From the IMG/VR virus record IMGVR_UViG_2579778778_000001: DNA of 4,605 nucleotides. One strand, given 5' to 3'. Positions 1 to 4,605 of the stretch are shown one piece after another. The notes below the pieces were generated by a model. The model was not told the origin of the DNA and ran no database searches. It worked only from the letters and a program-made list of their open reading frames with translations. Source of the stretch: a virus (Duplodnaviria > Heunggongvirae > Uroviricota > Caudoviricetes). The position numbers and the translations under genes were made by a program. Position 1 is the first letter of the stretch; each line of letters opens with the position of its first letter.

Positions 1-1997
1 CGGCAAAGAAATCCGAAACTGCAGCGGCATCATCGAAGAACGCGGCGAAAACCTCAGAAACGAATGCAGCTAACAGCGCACAGGCGGCAGCGACCTCACA
101 GACTGCATCGGCAAACTCCGCGACAGCAGCCAAAAAATCAGAAACCAACGCGAAAAACAGTGAGACAGCCGCAAAGACGAGCGAAACCAACGCAAAGTCC
201 AGCCAGACGGCAGCGAAAACCAGCGAAACGAATGCTAAAGCCAGTGAAACTGCGGCAAAAAACAGCCAGGTTGCAGCAGCCCAAAGCGAGAGCGCGGCAG
301 CCGGTTCTGCGACTTCAGCAGCTGGATCAGCAACTGCTGCGGCTAACAGCCAGAAAGCTGCGAAGACGAGTGAAACTAACGCAAAGTCCAGCCAGACGGC
401 AGCGAAGACCAGCGAAACGAATGCCAAAGCCAGTGAAACTGCGGCGAAAAGCAGTCAGGATGCAGCGGCTCAAAGCGAGAGTGCCGCAGCCAGTTCTGCA
501 AGCGCGGCGGCTGCTTCTGCCACTGCATCAGCTAACAGTCAAAAAGCAGCAAAAACCAGTGAAACCAACGCAAAGGTGAGCGAAACAGCGGCTGCGAACT
601 CAGCGAAAGCATCGGCAGCAAGCCAGACGGCAGCTAAAGCAAGCGAAGATGCAGCCAGAGAGTACGCAAGCCAGGCTGCGGAGCCGTATAAATATGTCTT
701 ACAGCCGCTGCCTGATGTGTGGATACCATTTAACGATTCGCTGGATATGATTACGGGCTTTTCGCCGTCATATAAAAAAATTGTTATTGGTGACGATGAA
801 ATAACGATGCCTGGCGACAAGATTGTTAAGTTTAAACGTGCATCGAAAGCAACCTATATTAACAAATCTGGTGTGCTGACAGAGGCTGCCATTGACGAGC
901 CACGATTTGAACGTGATGGCCTGCTTATTGAGGGGCAAAGAACAAACTACATGCTCAATTCGGAAAGCCCTGCCAGTTGGGGGCGATCGTCAAATATGGA
1001 TGTGCCCGAAACAGGGACGGATAATTTTGGTTTTACCTATGGAAAGTTTGTCTGCAACGATTCTCTGATTGGGCAAACCTCAGCCATTAATATGGCATCA
1101 ATTGCTGCAACAAAGTCAGTTGATGTCTCAGGCGATAATAAACACGTGACAACCTCATGTCGTTTTAAAACAGAACTGCAGGTAAGGTTGCGTATCCGGT
1201 TTGATAAATATGACGGTAGCGCAACAACTTTTCTTGGTGATGCGTATATTGATACACAAACGCTTGAAATTAATATGACAGGCGGTGCTGCCTCAAGGAT
1301 TACAGCGAGAGTCAGAAAGGACGAAGCTACCGGATGGATTTTTGCAGAGGCAACAATTCAGGCAATTGATGGGGAGTTAAAAATAGGCTCTCAGATACAG
1401 TATTCTCCTAAGCAGAGCGGGGCAACCGTATCTGGTGACTATATTTATCTGGCCACCCCACAAGTAGAAGATGGGCCTTGTGTATCATCTTTTATTATAT
1501 CAGGAGCGACGGCGGCGACCCGCGCAAGCGATATAGTTACAGTTCCAATTAAGAATAATCTTTATAATCTTCCTTTTACGGTTCTTTGTGAGGTACATAA
1601 GAACTGGTATAAAACGCCAAATGCAGCGCCACGTGTTTTTGATACCGGCGGTCATCAAACCGGAGCGGCTATTATTCTTGGCTTCGGTCGTTCAACAGAT
1701 TACGACGGATTTCCTTATTGCGATATTGGAGGAGCTAACAGACGGGTAAACGAAAACGCATCGCTTGAAAAAATGGTTATGGGGATGCGTGTAAAGTCAG
1801 AGCAGTCTACGTGCTCAGTAAGTAACGGGCATATATCCAGCGAAACAAAAACCACATGGTCCTGTATTCAGAACACCGCAATTATCCGTATTGGAGGCCA
1901 GACTACAGCCGGGTTACGTCATTTATTTGGTCATGTCAGGAATTTCAGAATATGGCACAAGGCATTGACTGATGCTCAGGTGGGGGAGTCAATCTAA
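1..1997 (+). CDS. stf: Side tail fibre protein, lambda Stf-like, 5'-partial (first full codon at nt 3; stop TAA 1995-1997). Repeat-rich Ala/Ser/Thr/Lys shaft, then a C-terminal putative receptor-binding domain with a LamG/ConA-lectin-like terminal motif.
   Basis: The frame of track ORF 576..1997 is open without stops back to nt 3. Translation of 3-660 gives repeats such as AKTSETNAKSSQTAAKTSETNAKASETAAK, which match from memory the AKTSETNA-type repeats of the lambda Stf N-terminal shaft. The track start at 576 is an internal GTG, not the true start. The C-terminus ends ...GLRHLFGHVRNFRIWHKALTDAQVGESI, resembling the terminal strand motif of LamG/ConA-like jelly-roll domains. It is followed by a coupled downstream gene (TAATG overlap). 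Confidence 0.85.
   Translation, partial: AKKSETAAASSKNAAKTSETNAANSAQAAATSQTASANSATAAKKSETNAKNSETAAKTSETNAKSSQTAAKTSETNAKASETAAKNSQVAAAQSESAAAGSATSAAGSATAAANSQKAAKTSETNAKSSQTAAKTSETNAKASETAAKSSQDAAAQSESAAASSASAAAASATASANSQKAAKTSETNAKVSETAAANSAKASAASQTAAKASEDAAREYASQAAEPYKYVLQPLPDVWIPFNDSLDMITGFSPSYKKIVIGDDEITMPGDKIVKFKRASKATYINKSGVLTEAAIDEPRFERDGLLIEGQRTNYMLNSESPASWGRSSNMDVPETGTDNFGFTYGKFVCNDSLIGQTSAINMASIAATKSVDVSGDNKHVTTSCRFKTELQVRLRIRFDKYDGSATTFLGDAYIDTQTLEINMTGGAASRITARVRKDEATGWIFAEATIQAIDGELKIGSQIQYSPKQSGATVSGDYIYLATPQVEDGPCVSSFIISGATAATRASDIVTVPIKNNLYNLPFTVLCEVHKNWYKTPNAAPRVFDTGGHQTGAAIILGFGRSTDYDGFPYCDIGGANRRVNENASLEKMVMGMRVKSEQSTCSVSNGHISSETKTTWSCIQNTAIIRIGGQTTAGLRHLFGHVRNFRIWHKALTDAQVGESI
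171..548 (+). repeat. In-frame tandem duplication of a 189-bp (63-codon) unit inside the stf shaft (copy 1 171-359, copy 2 360-548), with degenerate partial copies on both sides and a ~14-15 codon sub-periodicity.
   Basis: Direct comparison: gcaaagacgagcgaaaccaacgcaaagtccagccagacggcagcg at 171 versus gcgaagacgagtgaaactaacgcaaagtccagccagacggcagcg at 360 (offset exactly 189). The first ~100 nt of each copy are near-identical and the remainder more diverged. Protein units are AKTSETNAKSSQTAAKTSETNAKASETAAKNSQVAAAQSESAAAGSATSAAGSATAAANSQKA and AKTSETNAKSSQTAAKTSETNAKASETAAKSSQDAAAQSESAAASSASAAAASATASANSQKA. Confidence 0.85.
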
Positions 1998-2278
1998 TGA
2001 AAGATTTAACACTCAAATTTGAAGACAGGGCCGACTTTTCGGCCTTTATGGAGAGTATTGGCTATTATGATGACGAGTCGATGCAGGATGATATTCTTAT
2101 CGACGTGATAGGTAACGTGTACAAAGAAACCGGAGAACTGACTGAAGATGGCGAACCGGTATGTGTTAAGGAAGACGGATATTTTGTAAACGTGCGCATC
2201 ATTAATGATTCGCAAATATCGTCATTATTCGATGAATACGTGGTTGCTGTTGAGCATCAACTTCGTGGCTGGATGTGA
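1997..2278 (+). CDS. Hypothetical small acidic protein (93 aa), function unknown; candidate fibre chaperone or adaptor.
   Basis: ATG at 1997 overlaps the stf stop (TAATG). GGGGGAG Shine-Dalgarno at 1983-1989, 7 nt upstream. Uninterrupted ORF to TGA 2276-2278. Asp/Glu-rich, no hydrophobic segment. Low GC like the flanking genes. I do not recognise a family. Confidence 0.7.
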   Translation: MKDLTLKFEDRADFSAFMESIGYYDDESMQDDILIDVIGNVYKETGELTEDGEPVCVKEDGYFVNVRIINDSQISSLFDEYVVAVEHQLRGWM

Positions 2279-2287
2279 GGAAGAAAA

Positions 2288-3328
2288 ATGGCTACATCGA
2301 CAGTAATTCCTGATGACATCAAAACGCTAAAATCCGACGTTAGCAAATTAAAAAACGATCAAGGAAGCTACGCAACAAAATCTTATGTAGACAATAAAAC
2401 AACATGGAATGGTTATTGCAATGTAATCTATGATCAAAAAACATTGCCAACAACTGGAACTATATTCAGCGGTAAGCTGCATTTGTCAAATAAGACTGGT
2501 GAAACGGAAAACGCTTATAGTGACATATATACCAGAAAAAATATTGATGGTACTAAAGATACAATGACGAGGATCGTCACACATAACGGGACAAAAGGTA
2601 TCTTTTGGGACTTTAGTGATCTTTACGGAGGAACTTTAATTTTTCCAGGCAGTGATGGTTACCTTAAGATGGGGAACTGTCTCATGTCGTATGGTGTGCG
2701 GGGAAGTAACGCGCTTATTAAGTTTGATAATACAGACTCATTGCAGATCAAATATGCTAATCACGGGTCGACCATGACACTAAACACGCAAGGTACGGCG
2801 TATTCTGGTGTGTCGACGTTATTATGGGGAAATTCCAGCCGTCCTGTTGTTTATGAAGTCGGTGTTGATGGTGGCGCTTATATGTTCTATGCGCAGAAAA
2901 ATACCGATAACACCTATATGTTAAGCGTTAATGGTGCATGTCATGCCACCGCATTTAACCAGCATTCCGACCGGGATCTGAAAGACAACATTCAGGTGAT
3001 CGATAATGCAACCGACCGCATCCGTAAAATGAACGGCTATACATACACGCTTAAAGAAAACGGTATGCCCTATGCTGGTGTCATTGCACAGGAAGCTCTG
3101 GAAGCAATCCCAGAAGTTGTAGGTTCCGCAATGAAATATCAGGACGGTGCGAGCGGATCGGAAGGTGAAGAAGGTGAACGTTATTACACAGTAGATTATT
3201 CTGGTGTTACTGGCTTGCTTGTTCAGGTAGCCAGAGAGTCAGACGACAGAATAACAGCACTGGAAGAAGAAAACGCAGAATTAAGACAAAGATTATCTGT
3301 AATTGAGGCGGCGCTTGCGTCTAAATAA
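2288..3328 (+). CDS. Short tail fibre or tailspike-like protein (346 aa) with a C-terminal peptidase S74-type intramolecular chaperone auto-processing domain.
   Basis: GAGGAAG Shine-Dalgarno at 2277-2283, then ATG 2288. The C-terminal ~120 aa (from nt ~2966) carry the S74/endosialidase-chaperone hallmarks: Ser227 and Lys232 in NQH-SDRDLKDNI (Ser/Lys spaced i and i+5, as in the endosialidase CTD), then GYTYTLKENG, GVIAQEALEAIPEVV, YYTVDYSGVTGLLVQVARE and a terminal coiled-coil-like ITALEEENAELRQRLSVIEAALASK. The N-terminal ~226 aa are Gly/Thr/Asn/Tyr/Ser-rich and beta-like, typical of fibre tips. Confidence 0.85.
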   Translation: MATSTVIPDDIKTLKSDVSKLKNDQGSYATKSYVDNKTTWNGYCNVIYDQKTLPTTGTIFSGKLHLSNKTGETENAYSDIYTRKNIDGTKDTMTRIVTHNGTKGIFWDFSDLYGGTLIFPGSDGYLKMGNCLMSYGVRGSNALIKFDNTDSLQIKYANHGSTMTLNTQGTAYSGVSTLLWGNSSRPVVYEVGVDGGAYMFYAQKNTDNTYMLSVNGACHATAFNQHSDRDLKDNIQVIDNATDRIRKMNGYTYTLKENGMPYAGVIAQEALEAIPEVVGSAMKYQDGASGSEGEEGERYYTVDYSGVTGLLVQVARESDDRITALEEENAELRQRLSVIEAALASK

Positions 3329-3334: not shown

Positions 3335-3357
3335 GGGGCCGAGCGCCCCGTTTTATT
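3335..3357 (+). terminator. Rho-independent terminator candidate: GGGGC (3335-3339), loop CGAGC, GCCCC (3345-3349), then G and TTTTATT (3351-3357).
   Basis: A perfect 5-bp all-GC stem followed immediately by a T-rich tract, starting 7 nt after the stop of the 2288..3328 CDS. The stem is short, so strength is uncertain. Confidence 0.55.
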
Positions 3358-3370
3358 GGGTAGGATGAAA

Positions 3371-3664
3371 ATGGATATAACACCTTTCCTTCATGCGCTT
3401 TGTGCTGTGGCTGCGCAGCTACTGATTGGTCTTTTTACCGGGAACTGGGCTTACGGGGCGATAGCCGGTTGTACGTTCTTCATTGCGCGTGAACACACCC
3501 AGGCAGAATATCGCTGGATCGAAATGTTCGGGCATGGCAAGCGAATGAATATGCCGTGGTGGGGCGGTTTTGATACACGTGCATGGGATGTGGCAAGCCT
3601 GATGGATTTTGCTGTGCCGGTGGTGGCGTGTCTGCTGGTCTGGCTGTTGGTTAATCGTGGGTGA
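3371..3664 (+). CDS. Small predicted inner-membrane protein (~98 aa from ATG 3371; alternative ATG 3365; track TTG 3356), two hydrophobic segments, function unknown.
   Basis: GGTAGGA Shine-Dalgarno-like at 3359-3365, 5 nt before ATG 3371. Hydrophobic stretches ALCAVAAQLLIGLFTGNWAYGAIAGCTFFIA and VASLMDFAVPVVACLLVWLLV flank a Trp/Gly-rich loop (MPWWGGFDTRAWDV). No lipobox or cleavable signal peptide evident. GC is visibly higher (~53% in a sampled line) than genes 2-3. Stop TGA 3662-3664. Confidence 0.65.
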   Translation: MDITPFLHALCAVAAQLLIGLFTGNWAYGAIAGCTFFIAREHTQAEYRWIEMFGHGKRMNMPWWGGFDTRAWDVASLMDFAVPVVACLLVWLLVNRG

Positions 3665-3674
3665 AAAAAGGTGA

Positions 3675-3803
3675 GCTGTATATGCAACGGAGGAAGAAAC
3701 CCCGTTGCTGGAAGCCTGGAAAAAGTATCGGATGCTGCTGAACCGTGTTGATACATCAACTGCACCTGATATTGAGTGGCCTACGAACCCTGTCAGGGAG
3801 TAA
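3675..3803 (+). pseudogene. tfa: 3' remnant (~41 codons) of a tail fibre assembly gene (lambda Tfa family); no start codon and no N-terminal part.
   Basis: The frame open from 3675 to TAA 3801-3803 translates to [42 protein letters not shown]. From memory this closely matches the C-terminus of lambda Tfa and E. coli prophage Tfa proteins (...[30 protein letters not shown]...). An in-frame TGA lies immediately upstream at 3672-3674, only 8 nt after the stop of the membrane protein gene. Confidence 0.65.
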
Positions 3804-4045: not shown

Positions 4046-4605
4046 CTAATTGGGTGATGACAAATCCTGTGTATGGGTGTTTCCCTTTGTGCGTGCGTTG
4101 ATGCTGGTAACGGTGAACGTCATGATGAACACAACCGCGAATAAGACGACAATCGTCGGAGCTGGTGCACTGTCGATAAAAAAGGACAACCAGACACCAG
4201 TCATTGACACTATTACCGATATGCCAATCGCCAGTAGGAGCGCAATATGAAAGCGTTGTGTCAGGAGTACCGCAATGGCGCCAGGCGCAATGAGCAGAGA
4301 AATGGAGAGAATGATACCTACCGCTTTCAGCGTCGCCACAATGGTCAGAGAGACCATGCACAGCAGCCCATAATGCAGACATCTCGTATGCAAACCGCTT
4401 ACCTGCGCCTGTTGATAATCAAAGCTGAACAGCAAAAAATCCCGCCATTTTACGCTAATAACAAGTGTAACCAGCCCGGCAATAATCACCGTCTGGATTA
4501 TATCGCCGATGGTTACCCCGAGCATGTCGCCGAAAAGAATATGGTCAAGATGTACGTCTGGTTTGACTGCAATATACAAGATCAGACCTGCGGCAAACAT
4601 GCCAG
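4046..4605 (-). CDS. ABC-3 family (ZnuB/MntB/SitD-type) metal ABC transporter permease, C-terminal ~185 aa; the 5' end of the gene lies beyond the window. Possibly a sitD-like Mn/Fe permease.
   Basis: Minus-strand ORF open to the window edge, stop TAG (revcomp of 4046-4048). The translation is multi-TM and aligns by eye with the C-terminal half of E. coli ZnuB as I recall it, including the LFGD-L-V motif (here DHILFGDMLGVTIGD) and the following helices. Assignment within the family is from context, not sequence. Confidence 0.8.
   Translation of the reverse strand, partial: GMFAAGLILYIAVKPDVHLDHILFGDMLGVTIGDIIQTVIIAGLVTLVISVKWRDFLLFSFDYQQAQVSGLHTRCLHYGLLCMVSLTIVATLKAVGIILSISLLIAPGAIAVLLTQRFHIALLLAIGISVIVSMTGVWLSFFIDSAPAPTIVVLFAVVFIMTFTVTSINARTKGNTHTQDLSSPN

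What the first reader, a model, noticed from the sequence alone, without database searches (positions are those of the whole stretch)
1997..2278. Unrecognised 93-aa acidic protein translationally coupled between two fibre genes
Start overlaps the stf stop (TAATG) and the next gene starts 10 nt after its stop, so it is co-expressed stoichiometrically with both fibre proteins. It is strongly acidic, has no membrane segment, and I cannot place it in the Tfa/gp38/Caudo_TAP chaperone families. Candidate roles: dedicated chaperone or adaptor docking the short fibre onto Stf, or an acidic DNA-mimic-type anti-restriction or anti-defence protein.
Basis: inference. Interest (0 to 1): 0.55.

Follow-up and report, generated by a model that had tools for sequence, protein, structure and literature searches.

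The report
Small acidic partner of lectin-tipped tail fibres
This is a real, conserved 93-residue phage protein of unknown function that is always encoded right behind one kind of sugar-binding tail-fibre tip, so it is most likely a helper for assembling that tip; this matters modestly for understanding and engineering phage host range.

Summary
The ORF at 1997-2278 is real. Its ATG overlaps the stf stop (TAATG), it has its own Shine-Dalgarno, and the next gene starts 9 nt after its stop. It evolves under purifying selection (dN/dS about 0.2), it folds confidently in AlphaFold2 (pLDDT 87), and it is acidic (pI 4.05, net -15). It has no Pfam, NCBIfam, PADLOC or PDB match. It belongs to phrog_1361 and phrog_18574, both of unknown function.

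Context is the main evidence. In lambdoid, T1-like, T5-like, Seuratvirus, Dhillonvirus, rV5-like, P2-like, Mu-like and high-GC phages, the gene always sits directly after, and overlapping, a gene whose product ends in the same domain. That domain is a carbohydrate-binding-module-like sandwich homologous to the RcGTA head spike fibre Rcc01080. The downstream gene varies. About 90 prophage loci and phage 21 keep the small gene intact with no second fibre.

Within E. coli prophages the protein stays 94-100% identical while the fibre tip varies from 41% to 100%.

Best reading: a fold-specific assembly chaperone or cap for the upstream fibre tip. Docking of the second fibre is a weaker, possibly added role. 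A DNA-mimic anti-defence role is not supported. This is an uncharacterised family of a known kind and is of moderate interest.

The parts
3..1997 (+). 3' part of the side tail fibre gene stf. The full gene encodes 791 aa and starts upstream of the window. It comprises an Ala/Ser/Thr-rich repeat shaft followed by the distal domain.
   Evidence: RefSeq WP_000741769.1, 'prophage tail fiber N-terminal domain-containing protein'. phrog_1419 tail protein, E=1.7e-257. Translation of the shaft.
708..1994 (+). Distal domain of Stf (about 429 aa). It is a carbohydrate-binding-module-like beta-sandwich of the RcGTA head-spike-fibre (Rcc01080) type. It has a conserved framework and hypervariable loops, and it is the constant partner of the small gene.
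1875..1994 (+). Conserved last 40 residues of Stf (IGGQ..G.RHLFGHVRNFRIWHKALTD...). This is part of the conservation island around the small gene.
   Evidence: Mean pairwise column identity is about 0.8, against 0.3-0.7 for the rest of the distal domain, over 58 unique prophage loci. The motif is found upstream of the small gene in 100 of 101 further loci.
1982..1988 (+). Shine-Dalgarno (GGGGGAG) of the small gene, lying inside the end of stf.
   Evidence: Read from the sequence.
1997..2278 (+). The 93-aa acidic protein (phrog_1361 family). Predicted secondary structure in order: strand, two helices, four strands, one helix. The C-terminal tail is flexible and ends in the family motif P-x-R-x-W-[AM].
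2277..2283 (+). Shine-Dalgarno (GAGGAAG) of the downstream fibre gene. It overlaps the small gene's stop codon.
   Evidence: Read from the sequence. The 9-nt spacing is kept in all 78 prophage loci where a downstream gene could be called, and in IrisVonRoten.
2288..3328 (+). Second (distal, short) fibre of 346 aa. It is an exchangeable receptor-binding cassette with a C-terminal intramolecular chaperone. The Peptidase_S74 domain covers aa 227-278, which is nt 2966-3121.
   Evidence: Pfam PF13884, E=6.3e-14. phrog_4563, E=7e-209.
2288..2362 (+). Conserved N-terminal anchor of the second fibre (MATSTVIPDDIKTLKSDVSKLKNDQ).
   Evidence: Column identity is 0.94 over the first 20 residues, while the rest of the protein varies. 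The motif M-[AV]-T-x-T-V-I-P-x-D-I-x-x-L-K is shared with Drexlerviridae, Tequintavirus, Seuratvirus and Dhillonvirus distal fibres.
3335..3349 (+). Terminator-like hairpin that closes the stf / small gene / second fibre unit.
   Evidence: GGGGCCGAGCGCCCC followed by GTTTTATT.

Best explanation
The 93-aa protein is a dedicated accessory protein of the upstream fibre's distal domain. That domain is a carbohydrate-binding-module-like beta-sandwich of the RcGTA head-spike-fibre type.

Proposed mechanism:
- It is made by translational coupling, directly after each Stf chain.
- It binds the conserved framework of the lectin-like domain. The framework comprises the N-terminal FKRAS...PRFE..GLLIEGQRTN strands and the C-terminal IGGQ...HLFGHxRNxRxWHK strands. 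Binding probably uses the small protein's beta-sheet and its conserved flexible C-terminal P-x-R-x-W tail.
- It acts as a fold-specific, not allele-specific, assembly chaperone or transient cap. It keeps the domain soluble and correctly folded, or masks it, until the fibre is assembled.

What is shown: the gene is real, the synteny with the upstream domain is invariant, the gene is independent of the downstream gene, and it tolerates very different tip alleles.

What is inferred: physical binding, the surfaces involved, and whether the protein leaves the fibre or stays in the virion.

In the enterobacterial lineages that carry a second fibre with the conserved N-terminal anchor, the protein may additionally sit at, or help form, the branch point.
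For: 1. Invariant upstream partner.
- In six annotated phages of six lineages the small gene overlaps the stop of a fibre gene whose last 420-550 aa are 44-83% identical to the window's Stf, while the N-termini follow the phage type.
- IrisVonRoten, PeterMerian, PhiR40_1, Ioannina and AZ21 show the same arrangement.
- At distant IMG/VR loci (P2-like, Mu-like, high-GC), 17 of 25 upstream ORFs match the Stf distal-domain profile, against 0 of 327 other ORFs of 150 aa or more.
- The stop/start overlap is 1 or 4 nt in 78 of the 80 prophage loci scored.
- 100 of 101 further loci have the HLFGHxRNxRxW end just upstream.

2. Independence from the downstream gene. The following gene is variously:
- a second fibre;
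- a 97-aa membrane protein, in phage 21, 4A7, PhiR40_1 and about 91 prophage loci;
- a baseplate hub, in Mu-like L087;
- a second fibre plus Tfa, in P2-like loci;
- unrelated genes.

3. Not matched to a tip allele. Over 58 unique prophage triples the small protein has mean column identity 0.96, while the Stf distal domain falls to 41-43% identity with only its framework conserved.

4. Real and constrained. dN/dS is 0.20, AF2 pLDDT is 87, and the C-terminal motif and the G-[YW]-[FH]-V-N-[VL]-R motif are conserved across phrog_1361 and phrog_18574.

6. A small gene immediately after a fibre gene and co-transferred with its distal domain is the established arrangement for fibre chaperones such as lambda Stf/Tfa, P2 H/G and Mu S/U. 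This point rests on established knowledge.
Against: - There is no direct evidence of binding. No multimer prediction could be run, and no proteomic or genetic data for this family were found in the papers searched.
- Carbohydrate-binding sandwiches usually fold without a helper, so the need for a chaperone is not obvious.
- RcGTA's own Rcc01080 is reported to sit directly upstream of capsule genes, with no small gene mentioned (PMC5026251).
- No Rosetta-stone fusion of fibre and small protein was seen among 122 long proteins.
- The conservation island (end of Stf, small gene, anchor of the second fibre) would also fit a connector role.
- rV5-like phages replace the C-terminal third, including the conserved tail. 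The tail therefore cannot be indispensable for every version of the module.
Confidence: 0.55

Rival explanations
1. The small protein is a structural connector. It stays in the virion at the end of Stf and forms the docking site for the conserved N-terminal anchor of the second, exchangeable fibre. The result would be a branched fibre.
For: - In E. coli prophages, the only conserved stretch between two hypervariable receptor-binding cassettes is the last 40 aa of Stf, the small protein, and the first 20-25 aa of the second fibre.
- The 9-nt spacing to the second fibre is fixed in 78 of 78 loci and in IrisVonRoten.
- The anchor motif is shared by five phage lineages that all have the small gene.
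- The homologous IrisVonRoten locus is modelled as a distal T-shaped fibre, Gp24, attached to the proximal fibre (PMC11990801).
- The small gene bas32_0023 is annotated there as 'tail fiber protein'.
- rV5-like phages lack the anchor-type fibre and have a different C-terminus in the small protein.
Against: - About 91 prophage loci of two different small-gene allele classes, plus phage 21, 4A7 and PhiR40_1, keep an intact 92-aa gene with no second fibre at all.
- Mu-like and high-GC homologues have no fibre downstream.
- AZ21 has a downstream protein with a different N-terminus.
- The C-terminal tail motif is conserved in lineages without any second fibre.
- The published text attaches Gp24 to the proximal fibre and does not discuss the small protein.
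Confidence: 0.2
2. The small protein is an acidic DNA-mimic or other anti-defence protein that merely rides in the fibre operon.
For: - It has a strongly negative charge: pI 4.05, net -15. The acidity is conserved across the family, pI 4.0-4.6.
- It is small.
- It has no assigned function.
Against: - It is locked by overlapping stop and start codons to one fibre domain, in late structural operons of unrelated phage families and in standalone two-gene modules.
- Pfam at E<=1 gives no match to any family, Ocr and ArdA included.
- Anti-restriction genes are typically early genes. This point rests on established knowledge.
Confidence: 0.03
3. The protein has some other fibre-linked role that is neither folding nor docking. 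One example is a transient inhibitor that masks the glycan-binding site so that progeny virions are not trapped on debris of the lysed cell. Another is a trimerisation clamp that holds three lectin domains together.
For: - It is associated with a lectin-type domain.
- It is allele-independent.
- There is a precedent for chaperones proposed to act as transient caps on fibre tips in Alteromonas phages (PMC10579305, cited in PMC11990801).
Against: - A mask over the binding site would be expected to co-vary with the hypervariable loops. The protein instead is nearly invariant across tips that are 41% identical.
- There is no direct evidence.
Confidence: 0.12

Closest known systems
bas32_0023 of Escherichia phage IrisVonRoten (Tequintavirus), between proximal lateral fibre Gp22 and T-shaped distal fibre Gp24; also CPT_21_23 of phage 21
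   Same: These are true homologues, 39-54% identical. The layout is the same: the gene overlaps the stop of a fibre with the galectin/CBM-like end, and in IrisVonRoten a 9-nt gap leads to a distal fibre with the same N-terminal anchor motif.
   Different: Neither protein has been characterised. The IrisVonRoten protein is annotated 'tail fiber protein' without evidence, and the paper does not discuss it. In phage 21 no second fibre follows.
Tail fibre assembly chaperones Tfa / P2 gpG / Mu gpU (Pfam Caudo_TAP, PF02413) and T4 gp38
   Same: Each is a small gene placed immediately after the fibre gene, inherited with the fibre's distal part, and needed (for those families) to fold the tip. The proposed way of working is the same.
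   Different: There is no sequence or profile similarity. The client here is a CBM-like sandwich, not a trimeric beta-helical or knob tip. The protein is nearly invariant across very different tip alleles, whereas Tfa-type chaperones are matched to their tips. P2-like loci carry this small protein and, in addition, a Tfa for the next fibre.
Intramolecular chaperone domain, Peptidase_S74 (endosialidase / T5 pb1 type)
   Same: It is a dedicated folding aid for a fibre tip and is present in the very next gene.
   Different: It is covalently attached and self-cleaving, and its fold is unrelated. The Stf distal domain has no such domain, which leaves room for a helper acting in trans.
Chaperone 'caps' of Alteromonas phages V22/A5 (Gonzalez-Serrano et al. 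2023, PMC10579305)
   Same: It is a separately encoded small partner proposed to cover the fibre tip transiently. The host-recognition module is shared between unrelated phage families.
   Different: The family is different and resembles intramolecular chaperone domains (abstract). No homology to it was tested or found here.
Branch adaptors of multi-RBP phages (DT57C LtfA/LtfB, G7C gp63.1/gp66, CBA120 TSP N-termini)
   Same: A second receptor-binding protein is attached to a first one through a conserved N-terminal anchor, and the cassettes are exchangeable.
   Different: In those systems the docking site is a domain of the first fibre, not a separate 93-aa protein (PMC4728585 abstract for DT57C; the others rest on established knowledge). 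Here the small gene persists without any second fibre.
RcGTA head spike fibre Rcc01080 (PDB 6tb9), a relative of the client domain
   Same: The Stf distal domain is homologous to it. In RcGTA the fibre is a single subunit and binds capsule polysaccharide (PMC7296036).
   Different: RcGTA's fibre is anchored by a 10-residue N-terminal peptide to a pentameric base, Rcc01079. No small downstream partner is reported.

Membership tests
phrog_1361 / phrog_18574 (phage protein families of unknown function) | Full-length match to the family profile | tested here: met
   phrog_1361: E=2.5e-46, residues 1-93 on profile 1-92/92. phrog_18574: E=5.2e-8. Distant homologues hit phrog_18574 at E down to 2e-19.
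phrog_1361 / phrog_18574 (phage protein families of unknown function) | Family motifs: N-terminal M-[KR]-D-x-x-L-[KR]-F strand, D-x-I-G, G-[YW]-[FH]-V-N-[VL]-R, and a C-terminal P-x-R-x-W-A end | tested here: met
   Alignments A1 and A4. The window protein has MKDLTLKF, DVIG, GYFVNVR and QLRGWM. The last is a variant of the C-terminal motif, with Q for P and M for A.
Tail fibre assembly chaperone Tfa / Caudo_TAP (PF02413) | Match to the Pfam / NCBIfam profile | tested here: not met
   There were no Pfam or NCBIfam families at E<=1 for the window protein, and no PF02413 among 23 family members scanned.
Tail fibre assembly chaperone Tfa / Caudo_TAP (PF02413) | Gene immediately downstream of, and co-inherited with, the distal part of a fibre gene | tested here: met
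Tail fibre assembly chaperone Tfa / Caudo_TAP (PF02413) | Required for folding or trimerisation of the fibre tip; binds the tip | not testable with these tools
   This needs co-expression, pull-down or a multimer prediction.
T4 gp38-type adhesin/chaperone | Profile match; hypervariable glycine-rich receptor-binding segments | tested here: not met
   There is no profile match. The protein is nearly invariant, with 0.96 column identity, while the fibre tips vary.
DNA-mimic anti-restriction proteins (Ocr, ArdA and the like) | Profile or fold match to a known mimic | tested here: not met
DNA-mimic anti-restriction proteins (Ocr, ArdA and the like) | Strongly acidic surface | tested here: met
   pI 4.05, net charge -15. 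This feature is not specific.
DNA-mimic anti-restriction proteins (Ocr, ArdA and the like) | Early expression, with a location in early or leading regions | tested here: not met
   The gene lies inside the late tail-fibre transcription unit and overlaps the stf stop in every lineage examined.
Anti-phage defence system components (PADLOC) | Match to any PADLOC model | tested here: not met
   No families at E<=1.
Structural branch adaptor of a two-fibre complex | Always accompanied by the fibre it would dock | tested here: not met
   The small gene is intact without a second fibre in phage 21, 4A7, PhiR40_1 and about 91 IMG/VR loci, and in Mu-like and high-GC loci.
Structural branch adaptor of a two-fibre complex | Present in the virion, bound to both fibres | not testable with these tools
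   No proteome data were found for a phage that carries the gene.

The most novel reading that the evidence does not exclude
The protein is a universal, allele-independent plug on lectin-tipped fibres. It stays on the virion and turns the end of the first fibre into a standard socket. Any second fibre carrying the conserved M-x-T-x-T-V-I-P-x-D-I-x-x-L-K anchor can then be plugged in. This would be a separate, transferable connector that lets unrelated phages (lambdoid, T1-like, T5-like, Seuratvirus, Dhillonvirus) swap second receptor-binding proteins. In phages with no second fibre it would simply cap the socket.
Probability: 0.15. Interest if true: 0.65.

Novelty: new variant of a known kind. 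Interest (0 to 1): 0.42.

Why it matters
This allele alone is in 988 of 5426 complete E. coli genomes. Relatives are found in T5-like, T1-like, rV5-like, Seuratvirus and Dhillonvirus phages, groups that include model-collection (BASEL) isolates. Everywhere the gene is annotated as hypothetical.

If it is needed to make the lectin-type fibre tip, or to attach a second fibre, it becomes a required part in any attempt to transplant these receptor-binding modules. Examples are chimeric lambda Stf delivery particles and host-range engineering of T5-like phages.

It would also add a fourth, unrelated solution to the fibre-folding problem, beside Tfa, gp38 and intramolecular chaperones. This one would serve a domain that is monomeric in its one structurally studied relative, RcGTA.

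The finding does not overturn anything. It names a testable gap in a well-studied locus.

Tried and rejected
- **Profile searches on the small protein.** Pfam, NCBIfam, PADLOC and PDB sequence searches, with the single sequence and with a 23-sequence profile, found nothing meaningful.
- **Fold searches on the small-protein model.**
  - BFVD returned only uncharacterised phage proteins.
  - The afdb50 library was not available.
- **Complex prediction.**
  - The small gene and the second fibre are in the same frame.
  - stf and the small gene are in different frames.
  - So no prediction of a complex was possible.
- **Search for fibre-small fusions.** None were found among 122 long proteins. The 1840-member profile hit list could be seen only for its top 120 entries.
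- **Locus retrieval.**
  - The single genome-contig scan, run with alignment A5, returned only 11 loci, mostly Cupriavidus.
  - tblastn of a high-GC homologue against phage records found a single cyanophage.
- **Literature.** The two BASEL papers, the RcGTA papers and the BF23 T5-like LTF paper were consulted. None characterises the small protein.
- **Co-variation analysis.** I considered correlating the small protein with the Stf end or the anchor, and dropped it. Tight physical linkage and phylogeny would confound it.
Full report
**Where the window comes from.** The window is 100% identical to a stretch of many E. coli chromosomes, for example NZ_CP019256. It is the right end of a defective Rac-like lambdoid prophage. 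The gene order is Lom, a 791-aa side tail fibre (Stf), the 93-aa ORF, a 346-aa fibre, a 97-aa membrane protein, a Tfa remnant, and then sitDCBA on the other strand. Phage 21 has the same layout, including sitABCD, but lacks the 346-aa fibre.

- The ORF is at 1997-2278 on the + strand.
- The stf stop TAA (1995-1997) overlaps the ATG (1997-1999), and a GGGGGAG Shine-Dalgarno lies 8 nt upstream of the ATG.
- The small gene's stop is at 2276-2278. The next gene starts at 2288 behind GAGGAAG.
- The protein is acidic: pI 4.05, net -15.
- It is not a chance ORF:
  - RefSeq annotates it as WP_000654166.1, hypothetical.
  - It matches phrog_1361 at E=2.5e-46 over its full length.
  - Median dN/dS over 37 alleles is 0.20.
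  - AlphaFold2 with a 23-sequence alignment gives pLDDT 87 and pTM 0.74. The predicted secondary structure runs strand, two helices, four strands, one helix, followed by a low-confidence C-terminal tail.
- No promoter-like or terminator-like site above chance separates stf, the small gene and the 346-aa gene. A terminator-like hairpin follows at 3335-3349.

**What it is not.**
- Pfam, NCBIfam and PADLOC give nothing at E<=1.
- PDB sequence searches give nothing meaningful.
- BFVD returns only uncharacterised phage proteins.

**Size of the family.**
- A full HMMER scan found only 51 representatives at 50% identity among 1.84 billion proteins.
- A profile that includes distant members reaches 1840 clusters at 90% identity.
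- That profile joins phrog_1361 to phrog_18574, which is also of unknown function.
- The family hallmarks are a G-[YW]-[FH]-V-N-[VL]-R motif and a C-terminal P-x-R-V-W-A end.

**The constant neighbour is the upstream fibre tip.**
- tblastn finds the gene in 181-211 phage records covering lambdoid phages, Drexlerviridae, Dhillonvirus, Seuratvirus/Nonagvirus, Tequintavirus and Vequintavirus.
- In every annotated context I opened, the gene overlaps the stop codon of a fibre gene. The one exception is 4A7, where an IS element interrupts stf.
- Those fibres have N-termini typical of their own phage type. Their last 420-550 residues are 44-83% identical to the window's Stf.
- At 24 distant IMG/VR loci (P2-like, Mu-like, high-GC), a profile of the Stf distal domain hit 17 of 25 ORFs that end at the small gene's start, and 0 of 327 other long ORFs. 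Several of these are standalone proteins of about 405 aa consisting of just this domain.
- In 101 more prophage loci fetched with two other small-gene alleles, 100 have the HLFGHxRNxRxW fibre end immediately upstream.
- No fusion of fibre and small protein was seen.

**What that upstream domain is.**
- It matches NCBIfam GTA_spike_fiber and the RcGTA head spike fibre Rcc01080 in the PDB at E=1.2e-7. It ends with a Laminin_G_3-like stretch.
- In RcGTA the fibre is a single subunit that binds capsule polysaccharide (PMC7296036).

**The downstream gene varies.**
- In 78 of 78 window-type prophage loci where a downstream gene could be called, a second fibre follows after exactly 9 nt. It has a conserved start (MATSTVIPDDIKTLK...) and a variable body.
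- The same anchor motif opens the downstream fibre in tunus, PeterMerian, VogelGryff and IrisVonRoten. It is also present, frameshifted, in VSe12 and Ioannina.
- Phage 21, 4A7 and PhiR40_1 have an intact small gene followed directly by the 97-aa membrane protein. So do about 91 of the 101 additional prophage loci, which cover two distinct small-gene allele classes.
- In a Mu-like contig the next gene is the baseplate hub. In P2-like contigs it is another fibre with its own Tfa. In high-GC contigs it is unrelated genes.
- AZ21 has a 705-aa downstream protein with a different N-terminus.
- rV5-like phages keep residues 1-71 of the small protein but replace its C-terminus, and they have no anchor-type fibre.

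**The pattern of conservation.**
- Over 58 unique prophage triples, the small protein has mean pairwise column identity 0.96.
- The Stf distal domain falls to 0.3-0.7, except for its last 40 residues (about 0.8) and its entry strands.
- The second fibre is 0.94 over its first 20 residues and 0.35-0.6 afterwards.
- Loci with a 100% identical small protein carry Stf tips that are only 41-43% identical. In those tips only the framework is kept: FKRAS..ATYI.KSG, EPRFE..GLLIEGQRTN, TPQ.E.G..SSFI, IGGQ..G..HLFGH..N.R.WHK.
- Between phage families the opposite holds. The tip stays 64-83% identical while the small protein drops to 39-54%.
- The tip cassette and the small gene therefore exchange independently, and the small protein is not matched to a tip allele.

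**Interpretation.** The evidence points to a two-gene module, made of a lectin-type fibre tip and a small partner, that moves between very different phages.
- The best-supported function is a dedicated accessory protein for that tip. It would be synthesised by translational coupling and would recognise the conserved framework of the fold rather than the variable loops. It would act as an assembly chaperone or transient cap.
- The gene arrangement mirrors that of the classical fibre chaperones, but the family is unrelated to them.
- Binding itself, the surfaces involved, and whether the protein remains in the virion are all inferred.
- I put 0.55 on this reading.

**Rival readings.**
- The connector reading (0.2) is kept alive by the conservation island, the fixed 9-nt spacing, the shared anchor motif and the branched architecture proposed for IrisVonRoten. 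It cannot be the primary role, because the gene persists in about a hundred loci with no second fibre.
- A masking or clamping role is possible (0.12).
- The DNA-mimic or anti-defence idea rests on charge alone and conflicts with the location and the co-inheritance (0.03).

**Known or new.**
- The gene is in the databases as hypothetical: RefSeq, phrog_1361 and VOG7707.
- In one record it is labelled 'tail fiber protein' without evidence.
- The papers I could search do not characterise it. The 2025 BASEL paper models the two flanking fibres of IrisVonRoten and never mentions the small protein.
- I therefore class it as a new variant of a known kind: a fibre accessory protein of an unrelated family, with an unusual client domain.
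- Interest is moderate. It is widespread, with this allele in 18% of complete E. coli genomes. It is relevant to transplanting receptor-binding modules. It is not surprising in kind.

Noticed in passing
window 3371-3664 (+): A 97-aa protein (phrog_1443, unknown function), annotated in phage 21 with two transmembrane segments. It follows the second fibre here. In phage 21, 4A7, PhiR40_1 and about 91 prophage loci it follows the small gene directly. It may be a lysogenic-conversion or exclusion gene.
   Followed up: partly
window 3684-3803 (+) and 4046-4600 (-): A Tfa C-terminal remnant (a RefSeq pseudogene), then sitD on the other strand. Phage 21 and 4A7 carry sitABCD at the same place, so the sit iron/manganese transporter here looks like phage cargo rather than a chromosomal neighbour.
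   Followed up: partly
window 156-575 (+): The Stf shaft contains a 189-nt tandem repeat (2.2 copies, 83% matches) with 21- and 42-nt sub-periods. It encodes Ala/Ser/Thr-rich heptad-like repeats (AAKTSETNAK...).
   Followed up: partly
window 2288-2362; L006 4292-; L111 4789-; L002 4279-; L004 about 4289-; L115 about 3769-: The second fibre's N-terminal anchor, M-[AV]-T-x-T-V-I-P-x-D-I-x-x-L-K, is conserved across five phage lineages. In the VSe12 and Ioannina records it is cut off from the rest of the gene by a frameshift. That could be a sequencing error or a real inactivation.
   Followed up: partly
L005 4001-4333 (Escherichia phage nomo and other rV5-like phages): The small protein keeps residues 1-71 but has a different, longer C-terminus without the P-x-R-x-W-A end. 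The downstream gene there is unrelated to the anchor-type fibres.
   Followed up: partly
phage collection records MG065635/52/54/76/92 ('Campylobacter phage') and OR847733/OR848352 ('Listeria phage'): These records carry T5-like or rV5-like coliphage sequence that is 70-98% identical at the small gene. They are probably mislabelled or contaminated assemblies.
   Followed up: no
H1/H2 (NZ_CP097198, NZ_OY754392) and L112 917-3333: IS elements are inserted inside stf in some genomes and in phage 4A7. The small gene downstream stays intact.
   Followed up: no
window 3335-3349 (+): A GC-rich hairpin followed by a T-run lies 7 nt after the stop of the 346-aa gene. It is a plausible terminator for the fibre unit.
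   Followed up: no
PMC11990801, Fig 12 legend versus main text: The paper names IrisVonRoten's proximal fibre Gp22 in the legend and Gp23 in the text. In the GenBank record, bas32_0023 is the 92-aa small protein.
   Followed up: yes
L088-L090 (P2-like IMG/VR contigs): A P2 gpH-type fibre ends in the same lectin-type domain. It is followed by the small protein, then a second fibre-like gene with its own Tfa. Two different helper systems therefore sit side by side in one locus.
   Followed up: partly
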